A stretch of 64,000 bases of DNA, from contig JAQWYM010000077.1 in NCBI GenBank assembly GCA_029253965.1, forward strand, positions 5,863 through 69,862, written 5' to 3'. This DNA comes from Gammaproteobacteria bacterium (GTDB lineage Bacteria; Pseudomonadota; Gammaproteobacteria; UBA4575). Of the stretch, positions 9,014 through 62,570 are shown in pieces (position 1 is the first letter of the stretch; each line of letters starts with the position of its first letter). Made by a program: the position numbers and the translations under genes. Below the pieces are notes generated by a model, which was given only the letters and a program-made list of their open reading frames with translations, was not told the origin of the DNA and did not search any database.

Positions 9014-9031
9014 GGCGATTACCTCTAAGTT

Positions 9032-9379: not shown

Positions 9380-9394
9380 GGCAGAGGTTTCGTT

Positions 9395-10231: not shown

Positions 10232-10268
10232 AATAGCTCAATGTAGCTTAGATTAAAGAGAAAATAGC

Positions 10269-46304: not shown

Positions 46305-46907
46305 TTGATTGTTGCGGGAGGCGGAATCATGTCATTTCGAAAAAAAAACACAGTACCTTGTCTGTTGCTGTCCTATTTCATTTTATTGAGTGGCAGTACT
46401 CAAGCGGCTGAAGACTTCTGGTCTGATTTTTATCTGGGCTTTGCTGTCGGTGAGTCAGAGTTGAGTCGGTTTGATGTCTGTGAACAGAGTGCAGTGCAAT
46501 GTGATCTAAAAGAAAGCAGCCAAAAATTTTTTTCTGGCTATGAGTTTAATACCTTCTTTTCAGCTGAATTTGGTTATATGCGATATGGTGGTTTTGAGCT
46601 GGCAACAAATAATGAGAGTCATCTAGTCACAGATATTGATTCTTTATTCATTAACTCATTCTTGTCTTATCCTGTTTTTGAATGGGTCAATGTATTTGGT
46701 AAGTTAGGGCTTAATCGCTGGTCTATTAAGGGTGATTTGTTCGACAAGGAACTATCTTCAAATGATCTGGGGTACGGAATTAGTTATGGCCTTGGCATGA
46801 ATTTTAGTTTGAGTAAAAGCATCGGTATCCGTACTGAGTGGGAGAGGCTGTTCTTAGATAAGAATGAGTCTGATAGTTTAATGGGAAGTGTCATCCTTTC
46901 TTTCTGA
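46305..46907 (+). CDS. outer-membrane beta-barrel protein, paralog 2
   Basis: Same architecture as paralog 1 (FFSGYEFN / FVGYQFN motifs, C-terminal ILSF). Confidence 0.75.
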   Translation: MIVAGGGIMSFRKKNTVPCLLLSYFILLSGSTQAAEDFWSDFYLGFAVGESELSRFDVCEQSAVQCDLKESSQKFFSGYEFNTFFSAEFGYMRYGGFELATNNESHLVTDIDSLFINSFLSYPVFEWVNVFGKLGLNRWSIKGDLFDKELSSNDLGYGISYGLGMNFSLSKSIGIRTEWERLFLDKNESDSLMGSVILSF

Positions 46908-46914
46908 TCTATAT

Positions 46915-47871
46915 ATGAATAAGCCAACTTTATATATTTTATTCCTGATGATCCTTGCGCTCATCATTCTCACCTTGTTGAAGACACAAGGGGTCTCTTA
47001 TGAGCTTACTGAGAAAATCGAAACGCGTCATGAGATCACTAAAGTAGCCGCCAGTAGCTATGTTCGAAAAGGACAACATCGTCCTATCTTCAAATCGGAA
47101 GATATCGCTAATATTGGATTTATAATCGGTTCAAGCTGCGTTGCTGTTATTGATACTGGAGCAAGTTATAACGAAGGTCTTCGCTTGTTAGAGACAATTC
47201 GTGAGCTTACTGCCACACCTATTTGCTATGTGATTAACACCCATGCACACCCAGACCATATGCTCGGCAACAAAGCCTTTCAAGCAGCAGATGTGACATT
47301 TATAGGTCATCATAAACTGGCGCAAAGCTTGGCCTTGGTCGGCGATTTTTTTCTACAACGGTTACGTGCTTCTGAATATGCTACAGCGCAGGATACTAAA
47401 ATCATATTTCCAGATAAGGCGGTTAGTGGCACCCTCGAGCTTGATTTAGGTGATCGTAAGTTACAGCTAACAGCCCACGCTACGGCCCATACCGCTGCTG
47501 ATTTAAGTATTTATGATCCCAAGGATGATGTGTTGTGGCTTGGTGACCTCTTATTCCTGGAACATGTGCCTGCCTTGGATGGCAGCCTTCTCGGTTGGAT
47601 TGCAGAACTCGAAGACTTGCAAGATAAACAGATGACAACTGTCATTCCAGGGCATGGCGCAGTGAATAAGGCTTGGCCGCAGGCTGGTCATGGGCTGTTG
47701 CGTTACCTCAGGGTATTACGTGATGAAACACGCGAGTGGATTGCTGCAGGTGGAGACATAGAAGGGGCTCATGAGCATGTGGGATTGTCAGAGCGTGGTC
47801 TTTGGCAGCAGTTTGATGACTTCCATAAGCGTAATGTGATCAGTGCTTATGCTGAACTTGAGTGGGAGTGA
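46915..47871 (+). CDS. MBL-fold zinc hydrolase, membrane anchored (quinoprotein-relay-type metallohydrolase)
   Basis: HAHPDH zinc motif (INTHAHPDHMLGN). N-terminal TM anchor. Confidence 0.8.
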   Translation: MNKPTLYILFLMILALIILTLLKTQGVSYELTEKIETRHEITKVAASSYVRKGQHRPIFKSEDIANIGFIIGSSCVAVIDTGASYNEGLRLLETIRELTATPICYVINTHAHPDHMLGNKAFQAADVTFIGHHKLAQSLALVGDFFLQRLRASEYATAQDTKIIFPDKAVSGTLELDLGDRKLQLTAHATAHTAADLSIYDPKDDVLWLGDLLFLEHVPALDGSLLGWIAELEDLQDKQMTTVIPGHGAVNKAWPQAGHGLLRYLRVLRDETREWIAAGGDIEGAHEHVGLSERGLWQQFDDFHKRNVISAYAELEWE

Positions 47872-48002
47872 TTAGTGAAGATGTGGGTGATGTTTACATG
47901 GTATTCAGCCAATCAGAACTAGATGATTAACAAGTATTACTAATCAATTTAACGCTTAAGCCCGCCACTCACTGGTTATAATAAACTCTTGTTGATTAAC
48001 GA

Positions 48003-48791
48003 GTGATTATTATGCGCAGTCTTCATTTCATGCTTATTGTTAGCTTTGTGCTCGGTTCAAATGCATTTTCAAGCGATGACGCTTGGCAGTCACATTTGAA
48101 GTCTGATTATTTTGGGGCTAGTGAGATCATTGAGGACGAGTCTATTATGACGATCGATGGTCCTGTGAGAGCGGAAAACGGTGCCATTGTGCCGATACAG
48201 CTGCATGCACAGATTGCTCAGTCGGAAGCATTTTATATCAAGACAGTGACCTTGTTGATTGACGATAACCCTGATCCTCTGGCAGGCATTTTTCATTTCA
48301 CACCTTTGAGTGGTAAAGCTGACCTTGCGTTGCGAGTGCGCTTAAATAGTTATTCTAATGTGCGCGTTATTGCTGAAACCAGTGATGGCAAGTTGCATAT
48401 GAGTAAACGATTTATTAAAGCCAGTGGGGGTTGTTCAGCTCCGGTTGGCACCGATCTTGAGGCTGCTTTTAAACGTATCGGAAAAATGAAATTTAAAGTC
48501 AGTCCTGAAGTAGAACCACAACAATCAAAAAAACTACAGATTGCGATTAGTCATCCCAATGTCACGGGTATGCAAATGAATCAGCAGACTCGTCTTTATG
48601 AGCCGGCACATTATGTACGCAAGGTAAGGATTACCTTCAATGATGACGTGATTTTTTCAGCGGAGACAGGCATCTCTATTAGTGAGAATCCCAACTTTAG
48701 GTTTTATTTCGCAGCACAACAGCCGGGTGATCTGATTGCCCATGTGCAAGACTCGAAAGGGCTAGAGTTCACAGAAACCCTCAATTTATAA
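48003..48791 (+). CDS. fused SoxY-SoxZ-like thiol carrier protein (quinoprotein dehydrogenase-associated type)
   Basis: Signal peptide. The SoxY-like half (AENGAIVPIQL...LLIDDNPDPLAGIFHFTP...) ends in an internal GGC (KASGGCSAP) instead of the C-terminal GGCGG. The SoxZ-like half (IAISHPNVTGMQ...ISENPNFRFYF) follows. Confidence 0.8.
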   Translation: MIIMRSLHFMLIVSFVLGSNAFSSDDAWQSHLKSDYFGASEIIEDESIMTIDGPVRAENGAIVPIQLHAQIAQSEAFYIKTVTLLIDDNPDPLAGIFHFTPLSGKADLALRVRLNSYSNVRVIAETSDGKLHMSKRFIKASGGCSAPVGTDLEAAFKRIGKMKFKVSPEVEPQQSKKLQIAISHPNVTGMQMNQQTRLYEPAHYVRKVRITFNDDVIFSAETGISISENPNFRFYFAAQQPGDLIAHVQDSKGLEFTETLNL

Positions 48792-48816: not shown

Positions 48817-49299
48817 TTATAACCCTAGTTCCTCTGATACTGAGAAGTCGACAACACGTTTTAGTAAGTTGTTGGTTTGTTTGCATAAAATCACGCAGTC
48901 CTGAAGTGTTTCTGGTAATAAATGAGCGCTCACATGGACTTTATTAGCGTCCTGCCACACCGCTATCCTGCAGGGCATTACGCTGATAAATCGTGGACTT
49001 ATATCAAGGAATTGTTTCGCAATCTCAAGATTGCATGAGTTAATGATGGTGTATTCTGGAAATGAAATGTCGTGTCTTTCTGCTATGGCTTTACCGACGC
49101 GATTAATCGATGTGACATTATAATTTTCATTACTGATAGCAAAGAGTAATTCTTCAATAACCGTATCAAAGTCTTTACTGGCTGTACTGCGATGATAGCT
49201 TGGGCTGTAGTCCAAGCTATTGCTAGCTGGAGATTGCAGATGGCTGCAAGCCCCTTGAGTCATGATAAAGCAAATAACCAGCGTCAGCTGTCTTAACAT
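48817..49299 (-). CDS. DUF302 family periplasmic protein
   Basis: Signal peptide with Cys, DUF302-like core. Converges on the carrier gene with a 25-nt gap. Confidence 0.65.
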   Translation of the reverse strand: MLRQLTLVICFIMTQGACSHLQSPASNSLDYSPSYHRSTASKDFDTVIEELLFAISNENYNVTSINRVGKAIAERHDISFPEYTIINSCNLEIAKQFLDISPRFISVMPCRIAVWQDANKVHVSAHLLPETLQDCVILCKQTNNLLKRVVDFSVSEELGL

Positions 49300-50366: not shown

Positions 50367-51290
50367 TTAATAATAGCTATCAATAATATCTTTCGTCTTA
50401 GCGTTATAGAGTATCTCGCTGATTAGCCCAAGGTCATAGAGATTTTTGAGCTCACTGAGTTGCTGTTTAATGCTGGCCTGAGTGTTAACCGCTAGCGCAT
50501 CACTACGGCTTGGCTGTGAGTCAGCTGAATTAGCTGTCACCTGCTCGAGTGCTTGGCGTTTCGTTACTGCTTGCAGATCAGACTCAAGTTGGCTGGGGTC
50601 GATGATAAGCCAATCAGGACGTTTTTTCCCCTGGCTGTCTTGCGCCTGTTGTATGCCGCTTAATGCGGTAAACTTCACTGTAAAGTTTTCAAAGATCTGC
50701 TGGCGTGAAGCGAATGAGTGGACTTTTTTATCGGCAACCTTATGGCCATAGAGCCATCTTGCCGAGTGTCGCTGATTGACGGTGGCAAATATAATATGCA
50801 GTTTGTTGTCCTGCCAAAATGCACGACCGGTATTCACCGTGGTGGTGGTTAAGACACCGCCTAAGGTTTGTTTGTTGCCGTGAATTCTAAAGATGATGTC
50901 TTCTTTAGCTGTCGCCTGCTTGAAGGCTTGCTGTAAGGCCTTGGCAAATCGTTGAGCTGCGGTGCGACCAAGTAAGGGCGCGCTAACGATCTGGTTCTTG
51001 CCGGCAATTAAAAACCGTGAGCTCTGCATGTCTTCAACTAAGATATGTTGTAAGGCCTTAAAGAGTGTCTCAGTTGATACAGCTGAAGGGTGGTCATTGG
51101 CGGTGATTGTGATGCCAGTCTGCACTTTATAGCGTTGCTTGCTCAGCCCTTGATCTTGAGCGGCAAGACGAACAAATTGCTCTTCATCGGACCAAATCAC
51201 TTCATTATCTTTGGCTTGCACGCCAAAGCTAGTGAATAAAAGCAGTAATAATAGAAGGTTACATGGATAGTAAGAGCTTAAGGGAAACAT
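50367..51290 (-). CDS. secreted protein with C-terminal SHOCT domain
   Basis: Signal peptide. C-terminal LSELKNLYDLGLISEILYNAKTKDII matches the SHOCT short C-terminal domain pattern. Confidence 0.6.
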   Translation of the reverse strand: MFPLSSYYPCNLLLLLLLFTSFGVQAKDNEVIWSDEEQFVRLAAQDQGLSKQRYKVQTGITITANDHPSAVSTETLFKALQHILVEDMQSSRFLIAGKNQIVSAPLLGRTAAQRFAKALQQAFKQATAKEDIIFRIHGNKQTLGGVLTTTTVNTGRAFWQDNKLHIIFATVNQRHSARWLYGHKVADKKVHSFASRQQIFENFTVKFTALSGIQQAQDSQGKKRPDWLIIDPSQLESDLQAVTKRQALEQVTANSADSQPSRSDALAVNTQASIKQQLSELKNLYDLGLISEILYNAKTKDIIDSYY

Positions 51291-51433
51291 ATCAGACGCC
51301 ATATTTAGATTAATTAAATCTATTATAGGCTGCTGTAATTAAAATGAAAAGTCGAGCTAAAAAAAAGAGCGTGTCCGATCATACGGGCACGCTCTTTGAA
51401 GTTTCCTCAGCAGAGGAAATTCAGTCTTTCAAC

Positions 51434-52699
51434 TTAGAAGAACAGGATCGCACCTAGCGATATTGTCTCTTCCTCAGCTTTATTACCACTGTGTGCTTCA
51501 GACTTGGTCTTTGTGAACTCAGCCACAAGGTTTAGACCATTACCAACCGGATGGTAGGCGCCAACAATAAACGACTCATTAGTCTTAACTAAGTCTGAAT
51601 CTTTCTCAGCTTTATTAGCATCAAGGTTACTTTCACCATAACTAACACCCAGGTTAGTACCTAGATCAGGTACGGTGTACATACCCTGCAGGTAGAAACC
51701 GTCAGAATCACGTTCCTTGCCATCACTATCAAAGGCATCGACTAGGAAACCAGTGGTACCGATACCTTCACCTGTGTAGTAGTAAGCGACAAAGCTAGCA
51801 GGGCCAACAGCATACTTAGCACCAATGTCATAGCCAGCAGCCGTTGAACCATCTTCAGTTAAAGTTGCATCTTCAAATTCTACTTTTTGGCGAATGAAAC
51901 CTGCCCATAACTTACCACCATCAAAGGCATAATTAACCTTTGCTTCCATGCCATAGTCATTTTTCTCTTGACTACCAGTAACACCTGTTGTGCTGAAGCT
52001 AGAACCTGCAATTGTACTAGCACCCCATGGGTCGGTTAAGGCTAGGTTGAAACTAAAGCCATTATAGTCAGGTGAGAGGTATTGAATCTGAGCCTTCCAG
52101 TCAGCATAGACATAACCTACACCAATACGACCTAGTGTGGTGTTACCACCACTAGCAGATAAATCAGACACCGTACCGACACCATAGAGAGTCATGTCAT
52201 TCAGGATTGCGTCTGAGCCAAATAAGCCAATATCACGGCCTAACTTGAGTGTTCCCCAAGCACTTTTATTGCCAAACTCAACGAAGACTTGACGAAAATT
52301 TGAGACGTTATTACCTAAGGCGCCATCTTGGTTTGAACCTATTCCAGTATTAGTATCGACACCCGGTTGGAAGCCAATGTTTAAGCCGGTGTAAAAGCCG
52401 TCATCATTCGTGGTGTTAGCGCTGAAGCTAAACCATGCTGGTAACAAGCCGGTTTGAACGTTCTTACTTTTGTAATCTGTGCCATTAGAACCACAAGCCA
52501 AACCACCAGCAACGGTATTGCCTGCTGTTTTAGCATTACAATCGATGTTGGTTGAAAAAGCATTAATGTTGCCACTGAACTGCAGCGTCCAGTCACCAGC
52601 ATTAAGCTCTAAACCAGCATGACTCGTCATTGGCGGGACTAAAAAGCTAAGCAACAACGGCAGTTGTAACCACTTTTTACTAGGTGTTGTTATTTTCAT
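51434..52699 (-). CDS. outer-membrane porin (general beta-barrel porin)
   Basis: Signal peptide. Gly/aromatic-rich alternating strands. C-terminal GAILFF. Confidence 0.7.
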   Translation of the reverse strand: MKITTPSKKWLQLPLLLSFLVPPMTSHAGLELNAGDWTLQFSGNINAFSTNIDCNAKTAGNTVAGGLACGSNGTDYKSKNVQTGLLPAWFSFSANTTNDDGFYTGLNIGFQPGVDTNTGIGSNQDGALGNNVSNFRQVFVEFGNKSAWGTLKLGRDIGLFGSDAILNDMTLYGVGTVSDLSASGGNTTLGRIGVGYVYADWKAQIQYLSPDYNGFSFNLALTDPWGASTIAGSSFSTTGVTGSQEKNDYGMEAKVNYAFDGGKLWAGFIRQKVEFEDATLTEDGSTAAGYDIGAKYAVGPASFVAYYYTGEGIGTTGFLVDAFDSDGKERDSDGFYLQGMYTVPDLGTNLGVSYGESNLDANKAEKDSDLVKTNESFIVGAYHPVGNGLNLVAEFTKTKSEAHSGNKAEEETISLGAILFF

Positions 52700-52928
52700 G
52701 AATGGTGTCTCCAAATATTCATTGTTAAGGGCATCTGATTGTCTTCAACCCACAAATTGCAAAATGCAAATTTAATTAAGCAATACATTAATAACATAAA
52801 TTAATCATATTTATTAATAATAATACGGGTCATCCGTGTAATTCAAGATGAATTGAATGTATTGATTTAATGAATATCTGAGAGTGTTGTTTATATGACT
52901 AAGAAGAGGTGAAAATTCGGTTTAGTGA

Positions 52929-53873
52929 TTATCTGATGAAACGACCAAAGGCACGACTGCCATTACCTGTAGCAATACGCTTGATTAATTTAAATTCTAC
53001 GGTGTCTAAAACATAGACCTCATTATCAAACCAGCTGCTGACATAGAGACGTTTGCCATCAGGGTGTGCACTTAGTCCTTCGGGGAAGGTACCGACAGCG
53101 ATACGGCCTCTGGCTTGCCAGCTGCCTATGTCAAACAGGCTGATCGAATCATCTTTTTGGTTGGAGACGATTAAGTGTTTATCATCAATGCTGGTGGTGA
53201 CGGCATAGGGGCTACTTCCGGTTTGTAACTGTATGACCTCATGCAGAGTAACTGTATCAATAACGCTGACAGAGTCACTGCCAACATTGGCACTGAATAA
53301 CCATTTTCCAGAGTAGCTTAGGGCGAGACCAAAGGGCTTATGACCCAGCTTAATCGTATTGACGACTTTAAATTTTGTCAGGTCAATGACAGAGAGGCTG
53401 TCATCATCGCGGTTGGCAACATAAAGAGATTGACCATTAGGGTGCGTAACAATCCCTGCTGGACTCTTGCCAACTTTTATCTCATGAAGTAATTGGTAAT
53501 CTTCGCTGTTGTAGATACGCAGCATTCCTTCATACCAATCGACAACATAAAGATGTTTATCGTCGCTGCTTATGGCGATACCGAGTGGCCCACTACCCGA
53601 TGTAAAGGTATGGCTGACAGATAATGTTTGGCTATCAATAACGCTGATGGTTGCAGCGTCAGGGCTGCTGATGAAACAGGTGCTGCCCGTAATGTTGACA
53701 GCGACACCTGCTGGCCCTGAAGCCACAGTGAGAGTCTTGATGACTTCATCACTGTGAGTGTCAATGACTGAAACAGTGTCATCACCCTGATTGGTGATAA
53801 AAGCGTAAGGTTGAGCCAATAAGACACTATTGAAACTGCTAGCTATGATGAGGCCAGCAATGAATGCCTTCAT
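52929..53873 (-). CDS. YVTN-family beta-propeller protein (PQQ-dependent catabolism-associated type)
   Basis: Repeated V.VIDT / YV.N motifs. Start overlaps the upstream stop (ATGA), so it is part of the pqq transcript. Confidence 0.75.
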   Translation of the reverse strand: MKAFIAGLIIASSFNSVLLAQPYAFITNQGDDTVSVIDTHSDEVIKTLTVASGPAGVAVNITGSTCFISSPDAATISVIDSQTLSVSHTFTSGSGPLGIAISSDDKHLYVVDWYEGMLRIYNSEDYQLLHEIKVGKSPAGIVTHPNGQSLYVANRDDDSLSVIDLTKFKVVNTIKLGHKPFGLALSYSGKWLFSANVGSDSVSVIDTVTLHEVIQLQTGSSPYAVTTSIDDKHLIVSNQKDDSISLFDIGSWQARGRIAVGTFPEGLSAHPDGKRLYVSSWFDNEVYVLDTVEFKLIKRIATGNGSRAFGRFIR

Positions 53874-54394
53874 TCCTCAAGTATTTTTTTCAGCTCACTT
53901 AAGCCACTGACATAAATGCTTGTGACAGCTGCAATCGCTGCCTTATCGTTAAGATTTTCTGGTGGGTTATTATTCATGTAACCTCGATAAAAGGCACCCT
54001 GCCATGTTATTTCAGTATGGCCTTCACTGGTTTCATTGAGCTTGAACCAAGAGGAGTAGTTGTTAATAGGAATAACAGCGGTATCGACGTCTATTATACG
54101 GTAGAAAAACTTATGTTGAGCGGGGATGTATTTTTCTAGCGACTCGACAATGGTAGCTCCAGGTCCAAGGGTTAAGGTTCTTTTAGCGCCAATGCTATTA
54201 CCACCTTCACCTTCCGTGCTCATGACGGCAGGATGCCAGTTCATATTTTGGAAATTTTTGACGCTATCCCAAACTTTTTCAATAGGGGCATTAATAACAA
54301 TTTTCTCAACAACTTTTTGTCTGCTAGGCCCATGCGCAAAGCTTTCTGTAGTAACACTGAGAATAGATAATAAAAGGATAAACGTAACTTTCAT
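53870..54394 (-). CDS. SRPBCC (polyketide-cyclase-like) periplasmic protein, MxaD-like
   Basis: Signal peptide. SRPBCC fold cues (IEKVWDSVKNF...W). Immediately downstream of pqqE. Start MKVTF at 54394; the ORF-track start overlaps pqqE. Confidence 0.6.
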   Translation of the reverse strand: MKVTFILLLSILSVTTESFAHGPSRQKVVEKIVINAPIEKVWDSVKNFQNMNWHPAVMSTEGEGGNSIGAKRTLTLGPGATIVESLEKYIPAQHKFFYRIIDVDTAVIPINNYSSWFKLNETSEGHTEITWQGAFYRGYMNNNPPENLNDKAAIAAVTSIYVSGLSELKKILEE

Positions 54395-54428
54395 AAGCGA
54401 CTCTGTTTGGTTTGAATTTCGAATATAA

Positions 54429-55568
54429 CTAGTGTTCATTAAAAATATTGATGCGACGATAGGTGAAATTATAATCGGTACTATTCGCATCACAGGTGGC
54501 TAACTCGAGTAACTCCTGATGAAAAGGTGAATACTGGCAGGCGGGATCCATATTGCTGGCATCTCCGGTGATGGCAAAGGCCTGACAACGGCAGCCACCC
54601 CAGTCAATTTCACGTCGATCACACTTTTTACAGGTATCAGGCATCCATGCCGTACCACGGAAGCGTTGAAAGGCTTCGGAGTTTTTCCAAATTTCATTCA
54701 GTGGTTTATCAACGACACTATCAAAGCTGAGGCTGGTAATGCTTTCAGCAGCATGGCAGGGCAACACTAGGCCAGAAGGTGTAATGTTGAGGAATTGTCG
54801 GCCCCAACCACTCATGCATGACTTAGGAATCTTGGCGTAATAATCAGGCACAACATAATCAATTGAAAGAATGCCTTTAAGTGCTTTGCTCGCTTTTTTA
54901 ATTACTTCTGTAGCCCAATCCAGTTGTTTTCTGGTCGGCATTAAGTACTTTCGGTTGTAATAAGCCCAACCATAATATTGAACATGTGCGACTTCGATAC
55001 GTGAGGCATCCATATCGACAGCCATTTGTATGCTAGCTTCTAGATGATCAATATTGAGACGGTGAACAGGGGCATTAATGGTTAAGGGTATACCAGCCTC
55101 ACGAATATGTTTGGCAGCAGCTAGTTTTAATTGATAGCCATTAGGATGGCCGCCTATGGTGTTAGCGAGTTTTTCATCACTGTCTTGAATGCTGACTTGG
55201 ATATGCCCTAAACCTATTTCGGCTAGGGTGTTAATACGTGTTTGACTGAGGTTAACCGCTGAAGTGATGAGGTTGCTATATAAGCCAAGTTTCTCAGCAT
55301 GGGCAACAAGTGTCTCCAGATCTTTTCTGAGGGCCGGCTCACCGCCTGAGAAATGGACTTGTAATATACCCATCTCAGCCGCTTGATCCAATACCTGCAT
55401 CCATTGCTCAGTGTTTAGCTCTGAGGCTACTTTTTCAAGCTTTAATGGGTTTGAGCAATAGGGGCATTGTAGTGGGCAACGATGTGTCAACTCGAGTAAT
55501 AGTGCGAGTGGTGCTTTAGCTTCTTCAGCCATAGTAACTTCATCGGTAGCTTGATTATTCATACTCAT
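54429..55568 (-). CDS. pqqE: PQQ biosynthesis radical SAM protein PqqE
   Basis: CxxxCxxC (CPLQCPYCSN) and SPASM C-terminal cysteines. 379 aa. Confidence 0.95.
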   Translation of the reverse strand: MSMNNQATDEVTMAEEAKAPLALLLELTHRCPLQCPYCSNPLKLEKVASELNTEQWMQVLDQAAEMGILQVHFSGGEPALRKDLETLVAHAEKLGLYSNLITSAVNLSQTRINTLAEIGLGHIQVSIQDSDEKLANTIGGHPNGYQLKLAAAKHIREAGIPLTINAPVHRLNIDHLEASIQMAVDMDASRIEVAHVQYYGWAYYNRKYLMPTRKQLDWATEVIKKASKALKGILSIDYVVPDYYAKIPKSCMSGWGRQFLNITPSGLVLPCHAAESITSLSFDSVVDKPLNEIWKNSEAFQRFRGTAWMPDTCKKCDRREIDWGGCRCQAFAITGDASNMDPACQYSPFHQELLELATCDANSTDYNFTYRRINIFNEH

Positions 55569-55873
55569 AGTTGCATAAATCTTTTGTCGACTAGATCTTG
55601 TAATAAGAGGAGTACATCTTCTTCAATATCTTTAGAGTGTGCGTTGTATTCTGTAGAAAGCTGTTCAACAAGGGTGGCTATACTACAACTACCATCACAA
55701 CGACTAATAATGACCTGAGCAATAGGATCTAAGGAAATAACTTTTTCAGGGCCTAATAAAATCCATTGGTCTCGGGTCTTATCAAAGTTCAAACGTATGC
55801 GTTGACCTAACCGAACGATAGACTGAGTTGTAATGAGTGAGCGTTCTACTTGAGTATCATGACTTTTAATCAT
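55565..55873 (-). CDS. pqqD: PQQ biosynthesis peptide chaperone PqqD
   Basis: ~100-aa PqqD family. Overlapping stop/start with pqqE. Confidence 0.9.
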   Translation of the reverse strand: MIKSHDTQVERSLITTQSIVRLGQRIRLNFDKTRDQWILLGPEKVISLDPIAQVIISRCDGSCSIATLVEQLSTEYNAHSKDIEEDVLLLLQDLVDKRFMQL

Positions 55874-55876
55874 GGT

Positions 55877-56620
55877 TTAAGCAGGCTTAGTCAGTGTTGG
55901 AGTGAAACATCCAGGTGGGATCATGCCCGGCTCAATATACGCGCCATAAAGAGCATCTAATTGTGACCAAAGCACATTGCATTTAAAGGTGAGTGCCGCG
56001 GCAACCTTATCTTGTTTTTCAATGCTATCGGCATGCTCAAGAACGTAGGCTAAAGCAAAATCCACATCTCGTGGCGCTTGGCTTAAACGTGGTTTGAAAT
56101 AAGCCATAGTTTCTTCTGTTACAAAGTCATAATTAGCAAGCATTCCGCTTACACGTTCAGCGATGATGCGAGGTGAAAACATTTCAGTAAGAGAGGAGGC
56201 AATAGCCTCTAAAAGTGAGTTATCTGTAACAAAATTAAGATATGCTGAGACAGCAAACTGTGTCGCAGGTAAGGCGCCTTCTTGTGAGATCACATAATCG
56301 CGATCTAAGCCAAGACTGTCAGTAAGTTTAAGCCAGCGATTAATGCCGCCACTGTTACTGCCATCACCGTCATGATCAATCACACGCTGACGCCATATTG
56401 TTCGTAACATCGGGTCATCGATACGCGCCATTATTGCGGCGTCTTTTTTTGGGATTACCGCTTGGTAACAGTAACGATTAAGGGCCCATGCTTGAATTTG
56501 TTGCTTATTTAGATTACCTGCATGTAAATCTTTATGGAATGGATGCTGATCATGATAGCGTCTGCTGCCGATGGCGCGTAAACGCATTTCAAGTGTTTCA
56601 GAAGACTGATCGGTTGCCAT
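55877..56620 (-). CDS. pqqC: pyrroloquinoline-quinone synthase PqqC
   Basis: PqqC/TenA-like. 247 aa. Confidence 0.95.
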   Translation of the reverse strand: MATDQSSETLEMRLRAIGSRRYHDQHPFHKDLHAGNLNKQQIQAWALNRYCYQAVIPKKDAAIMARIDDPMLRTIWRQRVIDHDGDGSNSGGINRWLKLTDSLGLDRDYVISQEGALPATQFAVSAYLNFVTDNSLLEAIASSLTEMFSPRIIAERVSGMLANYDFVTEETMAYFKPRLSQAPRDVDFALAYVLEHADSIEKQDKVAAALTFKCNVLWSQLDALYGAYIEPGMIPPGCFTPTLTKPA

Positions 56621-57552
56621 TATAATTCTATCTCCATACCATCGTGACTGACTTCCCAGTTTGCTGCCTCAACAATTTTTCGCTGCTCTGAATGGGGGTC
56701 AAGTATTGGATTAGTATTATTGATATGAATATAAACTTTCCTCTTCACACCGAGTTGACTAAAGGCGGCAAGAGAACCATCAGTTCCAGTGATATTGGTA
56801 TGCCCCATTCTGGCGCCTGTTTTATTACCAATACCCATATCTATCATTTCATCATTATGGAAGAGGGTGCCATCAAACAAGACTAACTCAGCACTGCGTA
56901 AACGTTGTTGAAGTTGATCGTCGACCCGTGCACAGCCCGGAATATAGAAGAAAGTTTTGTTCGTGCTGATTTCAGTTATTTTTAAGCCAATAGTGTCTTC
57001 AGTAATGGTTCCAAGATTCTTATTGGAGGCTTCATCTTCAAGATAAAGCGCAACCTTTCCAGGGACAGCAAATGCAGTGATGCTAAGCCCTAATGATTCA
57101 TTATTATGTCCATCACACTCTATTTCTTCATTTAATGTGAAGCTTTTTCGAACAACGAAGGTTGTGTTTAAGACGCCAAATATAGGGTTATTGTTGAATA
57201 TACTTTGTAGGCGTGAAGTCGCATATAGAGTGAATGGCTGGCTCTCACGTAGATTTAGTAGGCCAGCTGTATGATCAACATCACCATTGCTTATGGCGAC
57301 GGATCTTATTGGGCTGTCTCGTAGTGCATCCTTTGGATGCAGTGCTGTTGTCTGATTGATTTGCTGACGTAAATCAGGTGAAGCATTACAGAGTAAGAAG
57401 TCAGTACCATTTGCACTAACAGCTATAGATGATTGTGTTCGCGGGAGTATGTCTGGTTTATGAGGGTCTCTCGCAGACTGGCAGAGTGGATTGTTGCAAT
57501 TCCATTGTGGAAACCCGCCTCCAGCCGCAGAACCTAAGATAATTATCTTCAT
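56620..57552 (-). CDS. pqqB: PQQ biosynthesis protein PqqB (MBL-fold)
   Basis: MKIIILGSAAGGGFPQWNCN N-terminus typical of PqqB. Confidence 0.95.
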   Translation of the reverse strand: MKIIILGSAAGGGFPQWNCNNPLCQSARDPHKPDILPRTQSSIAVSANGTDFLLCNASPDLRQQINQTTALHPKDALRDSPIRSVAISNGDVDHTAGLLNLRESQPFTLYATSRLQSIFNNNPIFGVLNTTFVVRKSFTLNEEIECDGHNNESLGLSITAFAVPGKVALYLEDEASNKNLGTITEDTIGLKITEISTNKTFFYIPGCARVDDQLQQRLRSAELVLFDGTLFHNDEMIDMGIGNKTGARMGHTNITGTDGSLAAFSQLGVKRKVYIHINNTNPILDPHSEQRKIVEAANWEVSHDGMEIEL

Positions 57553-57584: not shown

Positions 57585-57668
57585 TTATGCTACAACTGCG
57601 CAAGCATAACAATTAATTTCCATACCAACTGCAATCTCTGAAACTAATGGTGTTTTCCAAGTCTTCAT
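57585..57668 (-). CDS. pqqA: PQQ precursor peptide PqqA (27 aa: MKTWKTPLVSEIAVGMEINCYACAVVA)
   Basis: Hand translation of the minus strand. Conserved E-x3-Y (EINCY) cross-link residues. Lies 33 nt upstream of pqqB. Absent from the ORF track because of its length. Confidence 0.8.
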   Translation of the reverse strand: MKTWKTPLVSEIAVGMEINCYACAVVA

Positions 57669-57850: not shown

Positions 57851-57905
57851 TGAGGTGTCGTCACTGCGCTTTAAAAGCACTCAAGCTCAGCATCAGAGGT
57901 GATGC
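57851..57905 (-). terminator. probable terminator or attenuator hairpin 3' of the 114-aa gene and upstream of pqqA (gcttgag...ctcaagc, then T-run)
   Basis: Inverted repeat with a large loop followed by agcttttttt on the minus strand. Weaker than the other terminators. Confidence 0.4.
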
Positions 57906-58215
57906 TATTGAAGTTGCTAATAATTTCATTAGACCAAGCTGATTCTGTGAATATTGCTGCACGTTCACCTCGCATTAGTCGCATGCGTAACACCGTTTCT
58001 GCATCAACATATTCTGCATAGCTTATTTGCTCAGCAATCTCATCAATAGTGCAAGAGCACTTCGCTAAGTACGCTTGGCTTTGACCATTGGCAGCCATAC
58101 AGGCAAAAACAAACTCTGCTCGTGACTGCGTTGGGAAGTCGTTGGCATATGCACTTACAAGCAGTAGATGAAGGAGGGTGAAAGTAATGATGTTATTTCT
58201 TATTTTTTTTCTCAC
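57871..58215 (-). CDS. hypothetical periplasmic protein (114 aa, 4 Cys including CSC)
   Basis: GTG start with a GAGG RBS. Signal peptide MRKKIRNNIITFTLLHLLLVSAYA. No family recognised. Confidence 0.5.
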   Translation of the reverse strand: MRKKIRNNIITFTLLHLLLVSAYANDFPTQSRAEFVFACMAANGQSQAYLAKCSCTIDEIAEQISYAEYVDAETVLRMRLMRGERAAIFTESAWSNEIISNFNSITSDAELECF

Positions 58216-58260
58216 TCGTATTGCCTCAGAGGTTGATGCTTAAGGATTGCTAGAAGCGTC

Positions 58261-58941
58261 TTAACGCGTGTAACTTAGTTCTGTCTTAATTGTCTTCCCA
58301 TCTTCTTCATAATGACTCATCAAACTTTTAAAGCCACCAGGGACAGCCTTGCTTACAATGAACTCATACTGTCTTTTTTTCACAGCATCAATACGCTTAT
58401 TTGCTTTAAAAGGCGAAATACTAATTCGTTTTCCTGCGTGTACTTTATTTTCATATGTAATTGTGACGTCTTCTATTTTTGCATCGTTCCATAAGGCGGC
58501 ACGAATTTTGTTTCTTAGTACAGTTTTTGAATGTTTATTTGTTGTTGAATTCAGCGTCTCGCCTATGTCCCACTCTAAAAAAAACATAATGATTGGATTC
58601 GATTGAAAACCAATGACTTTTGGGAATGGCTTAGCCTCATCGTTATAGAGAAACTCATAGAAAACATCCCTCTTAGTTTCCGCGTCTGCAGCGCTGACTT
58701 CACCTATTACTGATCCTTTTATAGGGTCTGGACCATTGCGCGTCAAAACATATGTAATCTCTGTCGATTCCGCGCCTAAGTTTTGTAAATGTGGGGTACC
58801 TTGCAATAACATCTGTGCTTCGCTGAAATCATTCTCAGCAATTTCTGCATAGCTAGTGCTGAATAGCCCTATTATGATTATGAGAGTTTTTGTTACAGAA
58901 GCTAATAACTTCACTGAGCTTTGGTAATGCAGTGATCTCAT
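58261..58941 (-). CDS. hypothetical periplasmic protein (226 aa) translationally coupled to xoxJ
   Basis: The ATG (58939-58941) lies 1 nt after the xoxJ TAA. Signal peptide MRSLHYQSSVKLLASVTKTLIIIIGLFSTSYA. No family recognised. Confidence 0.6.
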   Translation of the reverse strand: MRSLHYQSSVKLLASVTKTLIIIIGLFSTSYAEIAENDFSEAQMLLQGTPHLQNLGAESTEITYVLTRNGPDPIKGSVIGEVSAADAETKRDVFYEFLYNDEAKPFPKVIGFQSNPIIMFFLEWDIGETLNSTTNKHSKTVLRNKIRAALWNDAKIEDVTITYENKVHAGKRISISPFKANKRIDAVKKRQYEFIVSKAVPGGFKSLMSHYEEDGKTIKTELSYTR

Positions 58942-58942
58942 C

Positions 58943-59773
58943 TTAGATTTGTTTGACCATCGGTACATGGTATTCCTCTAATATCTGATTTATCTGGCTT
59001 TGATTTTGCTTTATAAAGCGATTTATTCGACGTTTCCATTCGATCTCACCATGTCTTACTCCCATGGTGATGCTGTAGGACATTCTGGTTGCCTCACTAT
59101 CATCTTGAGTCAAAGGTGAAACGCTTAATGAGGGTGCATATTTGTCGCCGTAGTACCCTGCGATTGGGCCCCAAAGAATTGCTGCCGTTAGTGTCTTATC
59201 ATTCAAATGCTGCATTATTTGTTCACCAATCGATATGCTTCGAGTGTCGACAAATAAATGGTAGGGGGCGAGCTGGTCTATGAGACCATAATTCAACATT
59301 AAGTTGGTTGGCGGTGTGCCTGCAACGATGCCGATACGTTTCATTGCCTTCACTGTCGGGTGATCTAATGTATTGATTAAAGTCGTACTATCAGCAGCGT
59401 AGATGAGTGAAAAGATTGATCGATAATAAGCATTGGTATTCAGTGCTAAACCGTGTGCTGATGAGATACCAATAATGACATCGCAGTTATATGCATTCAA
59501 TGTTGATCTAACAAATCCTTGGCTTTGTGGGAACCAGTGATATGAAATCTCTTTTTTAAGGTCTTTAGCCAATAATTGAGCGATCTTATTTTCAAAGCCT
59601 TCTTCAGCATCATTTGAAAACGGTAGATTACTCGGGTCTGCACAGACTCTAAGTGTAATATGATCTAGCACTTCTGCTGTGTTTTGTGCCATTACTCCAT
59701 TAAATATCAATAGCGTGCTAAGTGCGCTGCTGAGTACAAGATTTTTAATGTGGGTGGATGTTTTTGTCATCAT
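58943..59773 (-). CDS. xoxJ: MxaJ/XoxJ family periplasmic binding-protein-like protein
   Basis: Signal peptide. SBP type-3-like fold. Position xoxF-xoxG-xoxJ. Confidence 0.8.
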   Translation of the reverse strand: MMTKTSTHIKNLVLSSALSTLLIFNGVMAQNTAEVLDHITLRVCADPSNLPFSNDAEEGFENKIAQLLAKDLKKEISYHWFPQSQGFVRSTLNAYNCDVIIGISSAHGLALNTNAYYRSIFSLIYAADSTTLINTLDHPTVKAMKRIGIVAGTPPTNLMLNYGLIDQLAPYHLFVDTRSISIGEQIMQHLNDKTLTAAILWGPIAGYYGDKYAPSLSVSPLTQDDSEATRMSYSITMGVRHGEIEWKRRINRFIKQNQSQINQILEEYHVPMVKQI

Positions 59774-59798: not shown

Positions 59799-60269
59799 TT
59801 AGGGTAGGCAAGCCGAATCACGTTCTTTAGCGGCCGCTGGTTTGCCTTGTTTTTTTGGCCGATTATGATCAAGAACACCATCTGATCTTGCGGCTAAATA
59901 AGCGTAGATGTCATCAACAAAGCACATGACATTCATGTTGCTTGCAAAGGATGGCATGTTTCTATTTTGAGTATTACTCACATTCGTTCTGCCATTAATA
60001 ACGGTTTCTAAAAAACCTTCATAACCTAAGACTTTCACAGACTCGGTTAGGTTGGGGGCAAATGAGCTGCCAAGACCTGCGGGTCCATGACAGACATGAC
60101 ATTCTGAATGGTAGCGTCGATAACCATTGAATGTGTACCAGTCGAACTCACCCTTATCATTGATTGAATATGGGGTTTCATCAGCATCAGCATAGACTGG
60201 GCTAACTACGAATTGAGCAATAACGACTGTTAATGAGATGAGAAAAATTTGAGGATATTTAAATGACAT
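59799..60269 (-). CDS. xoxG: cytochrome c-L-like electron acceptor for methanol dehydrogenase
   Basis: Single CHVCHG haem motif. Signal peptide. Between xoxF and xoxJ. Confidence 0.8.
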   Translation of the reverse strand: MSFKYPQIFLISLTVVIAQFVVSPVYADADETPYSINDKGEFDWYTFNGYRRYHSECHVCHGPAGLGSSFAPNLTESVKVLGYEGFLETVINGRTNVSNTQNRNMPSFASNMNVMCFVDDIYAYLAARSDGVLDHNRPKKQGKPAAAKERDSACLP

Positions 60270-60341: not shown

Positions 60342-60380
60342 TAAAAATGACACTCAAACCAGGGATGATTTGAGTGTCAT
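60342..60380 (-). terminator. intrinsic terminator immediately 3' of xoxF (12-bp stem atgacactcaaa/tttgagtgtcat, then T-run)
   Basis: Read directly from the sequence. Sits in the 170-nt xoxF-xoxG gap. Confidence 0.8.
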
Positions 60381-60441: not shown

Positions 60442-62232
60442 TTATAGTGAAAATACAGTGAGTACGCCACCTAAGTTGGTGTATTCCTGTAAATGGCGAT
60501 AACCACCTACAGCACCTAAGCCATCAGAGTCTTCTGTTAAACCAGCAGCCATACCAATGCCAGCCCAGCCACCAATGCCTGATAGGACAGCAATATATTG
60601 CTTACCATCATGCTGATAGGTGGTGACATTGCCAATGATGCCTGACGGGGTCTTGAAGCGGTAAAGTTCCTTACCTGTTTTAGCGTCAACTGCTTTTAGA
60701 TAACCTTCTAAGGTACCGTAGAATACAATATCTCCAGCAGTAGCTAAGGCACCACTCCAAACTGAGAATCGTTCATCGATAGACCATTTGATCTTTCCCT
60801 TATCTGCATCCCATGCAATGAAGTTACCCATATGTGTGCCACCGGGTGCTGGATACATTGCTAAAGTTGCACCCACATACGGTTGACCCGCGGTATAACT
60901 TACACGGAATGGTTCATAATCCATGCAAACGTGGTTGGTAGGCACATAAAACAAACCAGTCTTTGGTGAGAAAGCTGCGGGTTGTTGATCCTTGGAGCCT
61001 AGGGCTGCAGGACAAATACCAGTAGAGCTAACATCTTCACCATTAAACTCAGTGCTATAACGATCAACTACCTGTGGTCGACCCGTCTTCATGTCAACAT
61101 GAGTAGCCCAGTTAACAGCTGGATCGAATTTTTCGGCAACTAAAAGCTCACCAGTCTTTCGGTCAAGGGTATAACCAAATCCATTTCTATCGAAATGAAC
61201 TAAAGCAGGTCGTTTTTTACCTTTGACTTTAATATCAGCAAGAATCATCTCGTTAATGCCATCAAAATCCCACTCATCATGAGGAGTCATCTGATAAACC
61301 CATTTAGCCATGCCGGTATCAACATCACGTGCAAAGATAGTCATAGACCAGCGATTGTCACCAGGACGTTGAGTTGGGTTCCATGTACTTGGGTTGCCTG
61401 TGCCGTAATAAACAAGGTTTAGATCAGGGTCATATGAATACCAACCCCAAACAGTACCACCACCAATTTTCCACTGGTCACCTTTCCAAGTGTTTAAGCC
61501 AGAGTTTTTACCGACAGCCTTACCTAGATGAGTAGTTCTTTTAGGGTCGACTAAAATATCTGAGTCAGGGCCCATTGAATAACCACGCCAAGCCAGCTTA
61601 CCTGTCTTGATGTCATAAGCTGTCATTGAACCACGAACACCGAATTCACCACCTGATATACCGACTAATACTTTGTCTTTTATAACGTGTGGTGCAGCAG
61701 TACCTGTTTCACCCAAGGCGATATCACCATTAGCTACACTCCAGGCTTTCTTACCTGTGTTTGCGTGAAGCGCAATTAAGGTGGTGTCAGCTTGATACAT
61801 AAATATTTTGCCATCACCGTAAGAAAGGCCACGATTGACTGTGTCACAACACATCACAGGGATGGTTGATGGGTCTTGCTTAGGTTCATAAGACCAGATG
61901 ATGCGTTGATCATCATTGAGGTCTAAAGCGAATATCTTGTTTGGGAATGGTGTGTGGATATACATCACATCACCAATTATGAGAGGCCCACCTTCATGAC
62001 CACGTAAGACACCAGTCGAAAATGACCAAGCCACTTTTAATTCATTTACATTGCGTGAATTAATTTGTTTCAGTTTCGAATAGCGTTGATTAGAGTAATC
62101 ACCAGCAGGCATAACCCATTGTTTTGGGTCTGATGACATTCGTTCTAATTCTTGATTTGCAGTAGCGAGGGATGATGTCAATGTAGTAACCATTCCAGCT
62201 AGTAACAAAACAGCGGATTTTGTACTTTTCAT
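60442..62232 (-). CDS. xoxF: PQQ-dependent, lanthanide-type methanol dehydrogenase
   Basis: 8-bladed PQQ propeller. Vicinal disulfide CC (VMCCDT). DEWDFDG carries the extra Asp two residues after the catalytic Asp (XoxF D-x-D; MxaF has D-x-A). Start taken at MKSTKS (signal peptide) with an AGGAG RBS. Confidence 0.9.
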
Positions 62233-62570
62233 AGTGTTAAGGCTCCTCTTGATTTCAGTTATATTTACAAGGCTATAGGTTTTTAATATCACATGTTATG
62301 TGTTCATAATATTAACTTATGTCCTAAAAAACTATTGCCTATAGAGTATAGTTAGAATGTATAACTACATACAATGATTTTATTTGGGCCTGTTTGAAAA
62401 AGTCATAGGTTTTTATTGATCTTCATTAAATTTGAATGAGTGACAAATGTTACATAATAAAAATGAGGAAATGGTTATAAATTCGAGGAGGTGATCATTG
62501 AAAAGTAATTTTATTATTTTTTAATTAATTTGGTAACAAGAATTAGTAATAAAGGACACAGGATAAATAA

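What the first reader, a model, noticed from the sequence alone, without database searches (positions are those of the whole stretch)
57871..58941. Two unrecognised periplasmic proteins wired into the xoxFGJ-pqqABCDE locus, the first translationally coupled to xoxJ
The xoxJ stop codon TAA (58943-58945) is followed 1 nt later by the ATG of a 226-aa signal-peptide protein. After a 45-nt gap comes a 114-aa signal-peptide protein with four cysteines, two of them in a CSC motif, initiated at GTG behind a GAGG RBS. Both genes are visibly AT-richer than the flanking pqq and xox genes (~38% GC on a hand-counted 60-nt line, versus ~50% in housekeeping lines). Neither resembles MxaACKLD, MxaRS or lanmodulin by eye. 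Their position between the methanol dehydrogenase structural genes and the PQQ biosynthesis operon argues for an accessory role, for example lanthanide delivery, insertion, or redox maturation. This is hypothesis only.
Basis: partly seen in the sequence, partly recalled or inferred. Interest (0 to 1): 0.72.

Follow-up and report, generated by a model that had tools for sequence, protein, structure and literature searches.

The report
Unnamed protein pair beside lanthanide methanol dehydrogenase
Two secreted proteins of unknown function sit between the genes for a rare-earth-dependent methanol dehydrogenase and the genes that make its cofactor, and they turn up in the same setting in hundreds of other bacteria, which makes them good untested candidates for helper proteins of that enzyme.

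Summary
On the minus strand the order is xoxF, xoxG, xoxJ, A (226 or 235 aa), B (114 aa), then pqqABCDE. The claimed AT-richness does not hold. The start codon of A is ambiguous: either 1 nt after the xoxJ stop, or 26 nt inside xoxJ behind a good ribosome-binding site.

Neither protein matches any Pfam or NCBIfam model, or any solved structure by sequence. NCBI calls B "hypothetical protein".

A occurs in 199 of 185,579 species genomes, across Alpha-, Beta- and Gammaproteobacteria. B lies immediately downstream of A in 87 of 87 loci, usually with overlapping stop and start codons. The pair sits next to xoxFGJ, pqq genes or the "quinoprotein relay" genes (SoxYZ-like carrier, zinc hydrolase). 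All 50 readable neighbouring dehydrogenases carry the lanthanide-binding aspartate.

B is the wider family and often occurs without A, still in these clusters.

The predicted fold of A is a LolA-like open barrel. B is a small acidic helical protein with four invariant cysteines and no structural relative.

Function is unproven. My best guess is a periplasmic maturation or maintenance factor for XoxF. These are new, testable families, not a new kind of system.

The parts
58261..58941 (-). Protein A. It is 226 aa from the ATG at 58941; an alternative ATG at 58968 gives 235 aa and overlaps xoxJ by 26 nt. It has a signal peptide and a mature form of about 194 aa with no cysteine. The predicted fold is a LolA-like open beta-barrel with two plug helices.
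   Evidence: - ORF and sequence.
- No Pfam or NCBIfam hit.
- Family of 224 proteins, or 749 clusters at 50% identity.
- AlphaFold2 mean pLDDT 84.8.
57871..58215 (-). Protein B. It is 114 aa with a GTG start, a signal peptide, and a mature form of 90 aa with pI 4.2. It is all-helical, with four invariant cysteines (C39, C53-x-C55, C113) and an invariant C-terminal Cys-Phe.
   Evidence: - ORF and sequence.
- Exact match to NCBI MDG0996811.1 'hypothetical protein'.
- Alignments.
- AlphaFold2 mean pLDDT 87.5.
- No structural relative.
- No sequence match to any solved structure.
58943..59773 (-). xoxJ, the periplasmic binding-protein-like partner of XoxF.
   Evidence: TIGR03871 scores 276.5 bits against a cut-off of 212.
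59799..60269 (-). xoxG, the methanol-metabolism c-type cytochrome.
   Evidence: TIGR03874 scores 174.3 bits against a cut-off of 161.75.
60442..62292 (-). xoxF, a PQQ methanol dehydrogenase of the lanthanide type (motif HDEWDFDG).
   Evidence: ORF translation. Same motif class as all neighbouring dehydrogenases in related loci. The near-identical homologue in locus L004 carries Pfam PQQ domains.
60347..60380 (-). A 15-bp stem-loop followed by a T-run, between xoxF and xoxG. It may be a partial terminator that sets the ratio of XoxF to the downstream genes.
   Evidence: Pattern scan only.
57585..57668 (-). pqqA, the 27-aa PQQ precursor peptide with the E-x-x-x-Y motif (EINCY). It lies 202 nt downstream of B.
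54429..57552 (-). pqqB, pqqC, pqqD and pqqE.
   Evidence: ORFs. Exact-match NCBI names for PqqB and PqqC.
52929..54493 (-). An SRPBCC (polyketide-cyclase-like) protein and a YVTN beta-propeller protein, both typical neighbours of PQQ-dehydrogenase genes.
46888..48791 (+). [quoted passage not shown] In other genomes these are the most constant neighbours of A and B.
   Evidence: TIGR04559 scores 347.7 bits and TIGR04557 scores 269.3 bits.

Best explanation
A and B are a conserved pair of periplasmic proteins that belong to the accessory gene set of lanthanide-dependent XoxF methanol dehydrogenase.

**Shown**
- Here they are transcribed as the last two genes of a xoxF-xoxG-xoxJ-A-B unit, just upstream of pqqABCDE.
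- B is the core component. It is a 10-kDa acidic protein of five short helices.
- A is an optional partner that never occurs without B. It is a cysteine-free open beta-barrel of the LolA type, with its most conserved residues on two helices that plug the barrel.
- In most genomes the A stop codon overlaps the B start codon, so the two are probably made in fixed proportion.

**Inferred**
- The B helices are probably stapled by two disulfides (C39 and C113 each paired with one cysteine of the C-x-C).
- A and B probably bind each other.
- The pair most likely acts in the periplasm on building or maintaining active XoxF, rather than in catalysis or regulation.
- It probably works alongside XoxJ and the SoxYZ-like carrier, zinc hydrolase and rhodanese 'relay' proteins. 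Those have been proposed, without proof, to look after the vicinal disulfide or the PQQ of these enzymes.

Which molecule A or B actually binds is not known.
For: **Linkage of A and B**
- B lies directly downstream of A on the same strand in 87 of 87 loci.
- The A stop and B start overlap by 4 nt in 42 of 79 species genomes, and lie within -10 to +20 nt in 70 of 79.

**Linkage to the XoxF system in 80 species genomes**
- Of 44 loci with full 10-kb flanks, 31 have xoxF and 34 have xoxF or pqq genes.
- The SoxYZ-like carrier is present in 65 of 80 and the relay hydrolase in 56 of 80.
- Chance expectation for any one gene lying within 10 kb of a single-copy gene is about 0.5%.

**Linkage survives different gene orders**
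- xoxJ-A-B-pqq in marine Gammaproteobacteria.
- xoxFGJ-rhodanese-A-B-pqq in L090.
- xoxF-cytochrome c-xoxJ-A-B-hydrolase-SoxYZ in one direction in Azoarcus.
- Histidine kinase-A-B, convergent with SoxYZ, in Sinorhizobium and the Roseobacter group.
- pqqE-A-B in Xanthobacteraceae.

**Other support**
- All 50 readable neighbouring dehydrogenases have the lanthanide-coordinating aspartate.
- B-only loci sit in the same clusters.
- The conserved core of B is identical whether or not A is present.
- Folds.
- Signal peptides and absence of a lipobox.
Against: - There are no expression, interaction or phenotype data for any family member.
- The relay system that A and B travel with has no proven function itself.
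- In most Alphaproteobacteria, B and the SoxYZ-like gene are convergent rather than co-transcribed, so adjacency may only reflect shared membership of a xox island.
- In this window the relay genes are 9 kb away.
- No residues in B are conserved specifically when A is present, so there is no sequence signature of an A-B interface.
- No A-B fusion protein was seen among the few long A-family hits inspected.
- Disulfide pairing in B is inferred from helix geometry.
- Many loci are related by descent, so the counts overstate the number of independent events.
Confidence: 0.55

Rival explanations
1. Cofactor handling. B, alone or loaded by A, is a periplasmic chaperone that carries a lanthanide ion, a lanthanide chelate or PQQ to apo-XoxF.
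For: - The pair sits between xoxJ and pqqA here and in related Gammaproteobacteria, after pqqE in Xanthobacteraceae, and next to pqqA in Azospirillum.
- Mature B is acidic, with pI 4.2 and 14 Asp+Glu in 90 residues.
- B keeps several invariant oxygen-donor residues: N25, D26, T29, E34, N43, D58 and E73.
- LolA-type barrels are carriers of small ligands.
- A keeps an invariant R-N-K/R and a tyrosine on or near its plug helices, which could hold a carboxylated aromatic such as PQQ.
- Every linked dehydrogenase is of the lanthanide type.
Against: - Neither protein has an EF-hand or any other known lanthanide motif.
- A has only one invariant acidic residue.
- Cysteines are poor lanthanide ligands, yet they are the most conserved feature of B.
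- LolA-like cavities usually bind hydrophobic ligands, not a tricarboxylate.
- I could not check whether the conserved polar residues of B cluster in space.
Confidence: 0.2
2. Signalling. A and B are periplasmic co-sensors that report methanol, formaldehyde or lanthanide status to the adjacent two-component system. The closest analogy is RseB/MucB, LolA-like proteins that work in envelope signalling.
For: - In 58 of 80 species genomes a histidine-kinase gene lies directly upstream of A on the same strand, often with a response regulator and a FIST protein.
Against: - The adjacent kinases belong to unrelated types. The Sinorhizobium/Roseobacter kinase has no membrane-spanning segment and is presumably cytoplasmic, whereas the Hansschlegelia kinase has two such segments and a HAMP domain.
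- The gammaproteobacterial, Azoarcus and B-only loci have no kinase next to the pair.
- The window contains no homologue of that kinase.
Confidence: 0.1
3. Enzyme partner. B is a small stoichiometric partner or docking factor of XoxF. It would play the role that the MxaI small subunit or MxaD play for the calcium enzyme, for example stabilising XoxF or its contact with cytochrome XoxG.
For: - B is small, helical, acidic, exported and encoded inside xoxFGJ operons.
- It is linked only to XoxF-type enzymes.
- XoxF has no known small subunit (general knowledge).
Against: - From my own knowledge, not checked here, solved XoxF structures show no extra subunit.
- B is absent from many xoxF-containing organisms. 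A occurs in only 199 of 185,579 species genomes, and B, though more common, is far from universal.
- B has no similarity to MxaI or MxaD families.
Confidence: 0.1
4. Bystanders. A and B are general envelope proteins that merely travel with a mobile methylotrophy island and have no role specific to XoxF.
For: - Many carriers hold the cluster on plasmids or chromids.
- The LolA-like fold is common among envelope lipid-handling proteins.
Against: - Linkage to xox, pqq and relay genes persists through several different gene orders and three proteobacterial classes.
- In all but four of the 80 species-genome loci at least one xoxF, pqq or relay gene was detected within the flanks.
- One of those four, L019 from Azospirillum, has a DUF447 gene of the kind found in the methylotrophy islands. 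Two others, L039 and L066, have only the regulator genes. The flanks of L020 were not examined further.
Confidence: 0.05

Closest known systems
Quinoprotein relay system proteins: the SoxYZ-like carrier TIGR04557, zinc metallohydrolases TIGR04558/TIGR04559, and the CXXCW rhodanese-like protein
   Same: - They are periplasmic proteins of unproven function, defined only by conserved linkage to PQQ-dependent alcohol dehydrogenase genes.
- They are the most frequent immediate neighbours of A and B.
- They are present in this window.
- Like them, B is rich in conserved cysteines.
   Different: - A and B match none of these models.
- B is all-helical, not an immunoglobulin-like SoxY or SoxZ fold, and carries C-x-C plus a C-terminal Cys-Phe rather than a GGCGG arm.
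- The gene table for the Pseudomonas putida ped cluster lists the relay genes but nothing resembling A or B, so the pair is not a universal relay component.
LolA / LolB / LppX / RseB-MucB superfamily of open beta-barrels
   Different: - There is no detectable sequence relationship: no Pfam hit in any of 59 members and no hit to solved structures by sequence.
- A is not a lipoprotein and is not encoded with lipoprotein-sorting or sigma-E genes.
XoxJ/MxaJ and MxaD, the known periplasmic helpers of methanol dehydrogenase
   Same: - They share the compartment and the operon.
- XoxJ/MxaJ has been proposed to hold apo-enzyme for cofactor insertion (as summarised in PMC12997753).
- An SRPBCC protein lies in the same island; from memory, MxaD is also of this type.
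   Different: - The folds are unrelated. XoxJ is a type-3 solute-binding protein and MxaD is SRPBCC, whereas A is a LolA-like barrel and B is a helical bundle.
- There is no sequence similarity.
Lanmodulin and other lanthanide-binding proteins
   Same: These are also small acidic periplasmic proteins encoded near lanthanide-utilisation genes (from my own knowledge).
   Different: - B has no EF-hand motif and no family match.
- Its hallmark is four cysteines, which are not lanthanide ligands.

Membership tests
LolA-like superfamily (protein A) | An open antiparallel beta-barrel closed by internal helices. | tested here: met
LolA-like superfamily (protein A) | Sequence membership in a curated family of the clan, such as LolA, LolB, DUF3108 or MucB_RseB. 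| tested here: not met
   None of these Pfam families matched the window protein at E<=1, or any of 59 family members at E<=0.1. A few UniRef entries are labelled DUF3108 by their source, but that was not reproduced here.
LolA-like superfamily (protein A) | Binds acyl chains or another hydrophobic ligand in the cavity. | not testable with these tools
SoxY-type sulfur carrier (protein B) | A SoxY immunoglobulin-like fold with a carrier cysteine on a flexible C-terminal GGCGG arm. | tested here: not met
   B is all-helical and has no SoxY hit. Its C-terminus is an invariant Cys-Phe at the end of a helix.
Thioredoxin/Dsb thiol-disulfide oxidoreductases (protein B) | A thioredoxin fold with a C-x-x-C active site. 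| tested here: not met
   B has an all-helical model and a C-x-C motif, not C-x-x-C. It has no family hit.
Lanmodulin / EF-hand lanthanide binders (A and B) | EF-hand loops rich in Asp, often with Pro at the second position. | tested here: not met
   No EF-hand or other family hit. No such loops appear in the alignments.
Methanol dehydrogenase accessory families (MxaJ/XoxJ, MxaD, MxaACKL, MxaRS, MxaI) | A match to the curated models for these proteins. | tested here: not met
   No NCBIfam or Pfam hit at E<=1 for A or B. In the same search xoxJ and xoxG hit their own models above cut-off.
Quinoprotein-dehydrogenase-associated gene set (defined by neighbourhood, not homology) | Conserved linkage to PQQ alcohol dehydrogenase genes across distant lineages. 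| tested here: met
   - xoxF lies within 10 kb in 31 of 44 full-flank loci.
- The SoxYZ-like carrier is present in 65 of 80 loci.
- Linkage is retained through at least five gene orders in three classes.
Quinoprotein-dehydrogenase-associated gene set (defined by neighbourhood, not homology) | A demonstrated effect on dehydrogenase activity or maturation. | not testable with these tools
   No genetics or biochemistry was found for any member.

The most novel reading that the evidence does not exclude
B is a previously unrecognised maturation factor needed to build or repair the active site of lanthanide-dependent methanol dehydrogenase. It would act either as a redox-active C-x-C protein that sets the unusual vicinal disulfide next to PQQ, or as a carrier that hands over the lanthanide or PQQ. 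A would be a LolA-like shuttle that some lineages added to it. That would define a new periplasmic assembly step for rare-earth enzymes.
Probability: 0.2. Interest if true: 0.85.

Novelty: new variant of a known kind. Interest (0 to 1): 0.6.

Why it matters
How XoxF acquires its lanthanide and PQQ, and how its vicinal disulfide is formed and maintained in the periplasm, are open questions. The 'quinoprotein relay' proteins found next to these enzymes also have no assigned function.

This work identifies two further protein families that no database names. Their genomic linkage to lanthanide-type XoxF is about as strong as that of the relay proteins.

Both families occur in genetically tractable bacteria. 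Sinorhizobium meliloti pSymB and Roseobacter-group strains carry the pair, and Azospirillum brasilense carries B alone. Simple deletions grown on methanol with and without lanthanum could therefore assign a role.

Even a negative result would be useful, because it would stop these genes being read as part of the core xox machinery.

Tried and rejected
- **Foreign origin from AT-richness:** rejected. Total and third-position GC match the neighbouring genes.
- **Family assignment by sequence:** nothing found in Pfam or NCBIfam for the window proteins, in Pfam for 59 A-family members, or with alignment profiles against all solved-structure sequences.
- **A-B fusion proteins as evidence of contact:** the four long A-family hits fetched carry low-complexity extensions, not B.
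- **B residues conserved only when A is present:** none found.
- **An alternative partner upstream of B in loci without A:** the upstream frames share no common family, and several look like spurious high-GC frames.
- **Co-sensor idea:** weakened, because the adjacent kinases are of unrelated types and one type has no membrane segment.
- **Literature:** no paper linked xoxF with LolA-like or DUF3108 proteins, and nothing turned up for the guessed S. meliloti locus tags SMb20166-SMb20169. Searches on R. sphaeroides regulators returned noise.
- **Structured RNA:** Rfam found none in the window.
- **PLSDB annotation for S. meliloti 1021 pSymB:** the record was empty, so another strain was used.
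Full report
**1. The observation**

On the minus strand the window reads as follows:

| Feature | Coordinates |
|---|---|
| xoxF | 62292..60442 |
| stem-loop with T-run | 60380..60347 |
| xoxG | 60269..59799 |
| xoxJ | 59773..58943 |
| A | 58941..58261 |
| B | 58215..57871 |
| AT-rich spacer | 202 nt |
| pqqA | 57668..57585 |
| pqqBCDE | 57552..54429 |
| SRPBCC protein | 54493..53870 |
| YVTN beta-propeller | 53873..52929 |

xoxJ and xoxG score above the curated cut-offs of their NCBIfam models. XoxF carries the lanthanide-type motif HDEWDFDG.

- An in-frame ATG at 58968 sits 5 nt after GAGGA and gives a 235-aa product overlapping xoxJ by 26 nt. Metagenome gene callers choose it. The ATG at 58941 has no ribosome-binding site.
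- Close relatives of the window differ at about 20 positions in this 800-nt stretch, and both ATGs are conserved, so they do not settle the start.
- The AT-richness claim fails. A is 38.0% GC and B is 41.7%, against 37.2-44.4% for the xox and pqq genes, and third-position GC is the same.

**2. Origin of the window**

Exact-sequence look-up places the window in an uncultured marine gammaproteobacterium (NCBI proteins MDG0996809-14). There B is deposited as 'hypothetical protein P8O97_06690'. Near-identical contigs come from marine metagenomes. The rest of the window is ordinary chromosome, including mutL, pgi, pcnB, amtB, argF and argD.

**3. Neither protein belongs to a named family**

- Pfam and NCBIfam give nothing for A or B.
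- None of 59 A-family members hits Pfam.
- Alignment profiles of both families find nothing among the sequences of solved structures.
- Genome annotation (PGAP) of S. meliloti, Azoarcus, Azospirillum and Phyllobacterium calls the homologues 'hypothetical protein'.

**4. Size and spread of the families**

- A single-sequence search found only two relatives of A. After I recognised divergent A genes next to B homologues, a profile search found 224 proteins.
- An exhaustive profile search found 749 clusters at 50% identity among 1.84 billion representatives, nearly all 205-260 aa long.
- A occurs in 199 of 185,579 species genomes. Most are Alphaproteobacteria: the Roseobacter group, Sinorhizobium/Ensifer, Ciceribacter, Roseibium, Hansschlegelia, Methylopila, Ancylobacter, Azospirillum and Tistlia. 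There are also Gammaproteobacteria, and plasmid searches add Betaproteobacteria such as Azoarcus and Paraburkholderia.
- B is a larger family.

**5. Gene-neighbourhood tests**

*From A outward*
- B lies immediately downstream of A on the same strand in 87 of 87 loci.
- The A stop and B start overlap by 4 nt in 42 of 79 species genomes, and lie within -10 to +20 nt in 70 of 79.
- Among 44 species-genome loci with full 10-kb flanks, 31 have xoxF and 34 have xoxF or pqq genes.
- Across all 80 species-genome loci the neighbour counts are:

| Neighbour | Loci of 80 |
|---|---|
| SoxYZ-like carrier | 65 |
| Histidine kinase | 58 |
| Further unannotated 205-aa secreted protein | 57 |
| Relay zinc hydrolase | 56 |

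- Only four loci show none of xoxF, pqq, SoxYZ-like carrier or relay hydrolase. One of them (L019, Azospirillum) has a DUF447 gene of the kind seen in the methylotrophy islands. Two others (L039, L066) have only the regulator genes. I did not examine the flanks of L020 further.
- Every one of the 50 neighbouring PQQ dehydrogenases in which the motif could be read has the lanthanide-coordinating aspartate.

*Different gene orders that keep the linkage*

| Gene order | Where |
|---|---|
| xoxFGJ-A-B-pqq | marine Gammaproteobacteria |
| xoxF-G-J-rhodanese-A-B-pqqBCDE | L090 |
| xoxF-cytochrome c-xoxJ-A-B-hydrolase-SoxYZ-hydrolase, one direction | Azoarcus |
| regulator-FIST-kinase-A-B, then convergent SoxYZ, hydrolase, glutathione-dependent formaldehyde oxidation genes, xoxFGJ, CXXCW | S. 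meliloti pSymB |
| pqqBCDE-A-B | Xanthobacteraceae |
| fae/H4MPT genes-A-B-SoxYZ-xoxFGJ | low-GC marine methylotroph |

The window itself carries the relay hydrolase (TIGR04559) and the SoxYZ-like carrier (TIGR04557) at 46.9-48.8 kb.

*From B outward*
- Of 61 metagenomic B loci with room upstream, 33 have A and 28 do not. The loci without A that have enough flanking sequence still contain xox, pqq, relay or beta-propeller genes.
- Annotated plasmids confirm true B-only loci. In Phyllobacterium, B stands alone between a divergent xoxFGJ-CXXCW-pqqABCDE block and the convergent SoxYZ-like carrier and hydrolase.
- In Azospirillum brasilense, B lies between pqqA and the SoxYZ-like carrier and hydrolase, beside fae and H4MPT genes.
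- The conserved core of B is identical in the 115 distinct sequences with A and the 23 without.
- So B is the core component, and A is an add-on that depends on B.

**6. Structures**

*Protein A*
- The model has mean pLDDT 84.8. After the signal peptide it forms an antiparallel sheet of 10 strands around two helices, at residues 116-132 and 139-152.
- Those helices carry most of the invariant residues: N115, P116, M119, F121, E123, S138, R143 and N144.
- Mature A is about 22 kDa and has no cysteine.

*Protein B*
- The model has mean pLDDT 87.5 and is all-helical, with five helices after the signal peptide.
- It has no convincing structural relative.
- Mature B is 90 residues with pI 4.2.
- Its mature N-terminus N-D-F/Y-P-T is nearly invariant.
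- C39, C53, C55 and C113 are invariant, and the protein ends in Cys-Phe.
- C53 and C55 are two residues apart on one helix and so face opposite sides. The simplest reading is that each forms a disulfide with a cysteine on a neighbouring helix (C39, C113).

**7. What it most likely does**

*Shown*
- A and B are exported, co-encoded and mostly translationally coupled.
- They are embedded in lanthanide-type XoxF clusters.

*Inferred*
- They act in the periplasm on making or maintaining active XoxF, alongside XoxJ and the relay proteins.
- A recent review of the ped cluster notes that the relay proteins have only hypothetical roles, namely forming the active-site disulfide or protecting PQQ from sulfur nucleophiles. 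It also notes that transposon data in P. putida showed little effect without lanthanides.
- I rate this general explanation at 0.55.

*Rivals*
- Lanthanide or PQQ carrier (0.2). The position next to pqq genes and the acidic, oxygen-donor-rich sequence of B favour it. The lack of any lanthanide motif and the dominance of cysteines count against it.
- Periplasmic co-sensor for the adjacent kinase (0.1). This is weakened because the kinases are of unrelated types, one apparently cytoplasmic, and are absent from many loci.
- Small partner or docking factor of XoxF (0.1).
- Bystander (0.05).

**8. Comparison with known systems**

- The closest analogue in kind is the quinoprotein relay set, which is likewise defined only by neighbourhood. 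A and B match none of its models. Judged by its published gene table, the P. putida ped cluster has the relay genes without A or B.
- A resembles LolA-type carriers in fold but not in sequence.
- B fails the defining features of SoxY carriers, thioredoxins, EF-hand lanthanide binders and every Mxa or Xox accessory family.

**9. Verdict**

- Its compositional argument is wrong, and the coupling to xoxJ is a feature of this lineage only.
- The more general facts are the A-B pairing, the wider B family and the tie to the relay genes.
- I found no literature on either family.
- I rate it as a new variant of a known kind of system: a XoxF cluster with two unnamed accessory families. Interest is 0.6, mainly because the families occur in tractable bacteria and bear on an open question about how rare-earth enzymes are assembled.

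Noticed in passing
window 60347-60380 (minus strand): A 15-bp stem-loop followed by a T-run lies between xoxF and xoxG. It could be a partial terminator that gives more XoxF transcript than transcript for the downstream genes. It rests on a pattern match only.
   Followed up: no
L003:10363-10980 (minus strand); also L001:1866-2471: A third unannotated secreted protein of about 205 aa, with two cysteines and no Pfam or NCBIfam hit, is conserved in 57 of 80 A-B loci, between the relay hydrolase and the glutathione-dependent formaldehyde dehydrogenase gene. It also lies upstream of xoxF in a gammaproteobacterial relative. No homologue was found in this window.
   Followed up: partly
window 62571-64000 (plus strand, runs off the window end): A large secreted protein, about 1008 aa in near-identical contigs, with no Pfam domain is transcribed divergently from xoxF. 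Only its first 476 residues lie in the window.
   Followed up: partly
L024, L025, L030, L035, L056, L061, L067 and about 20 other species-genome loci: About two dozen independent draft assemblies of Rhizobiaceae and Roseobacter-group genomes have a contig end roughly 3-3.5 kb downstream of A-B, at or near the class III alcohol (formaldehyde) dehydrogenase gene where one is detected. Multiple copies of that gene may break assemblies at this point. As a result the xoxF co-occurrence count is an underestimate.
   Followed up: no
window 46888-48791 (plus strand) and 48817-49299 (minus strand): The relay zinc hydrolase 2 and the SoxYZ-like carrier lie 9 kb from A-B and were not mentioned in the finding. 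A DUF302 protein lies just beyond them on the opposite strand.
   Followed up: partly
window 51434-52714 and 50367-51302 (minus strand): A 426-aa protein that looks like an outer-membrane porin from its composition, and a 311-aa protein, flank the xox-pqq island. Neither has a Pfam hit, and the 311-aa protein also has no NCBIfam hit.
   Followed up: no
L078 (Hansschlegelia zhihuaiae) 7218-10734: In the methylotrophs Hansschlegelia and Methylopila, A-B follows a membrane-bound HAMP histidine kinase; in Hansschlegelia, the one locus annotated, an OmpR-type regulator lies between them. In Sinorhizobium and the Roseobacter group the pair instead follows a soluble PAS hybrid kinase with a FIST protein. 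So two unrelated regulatory modules occupy the same position.
   Followed up: partly
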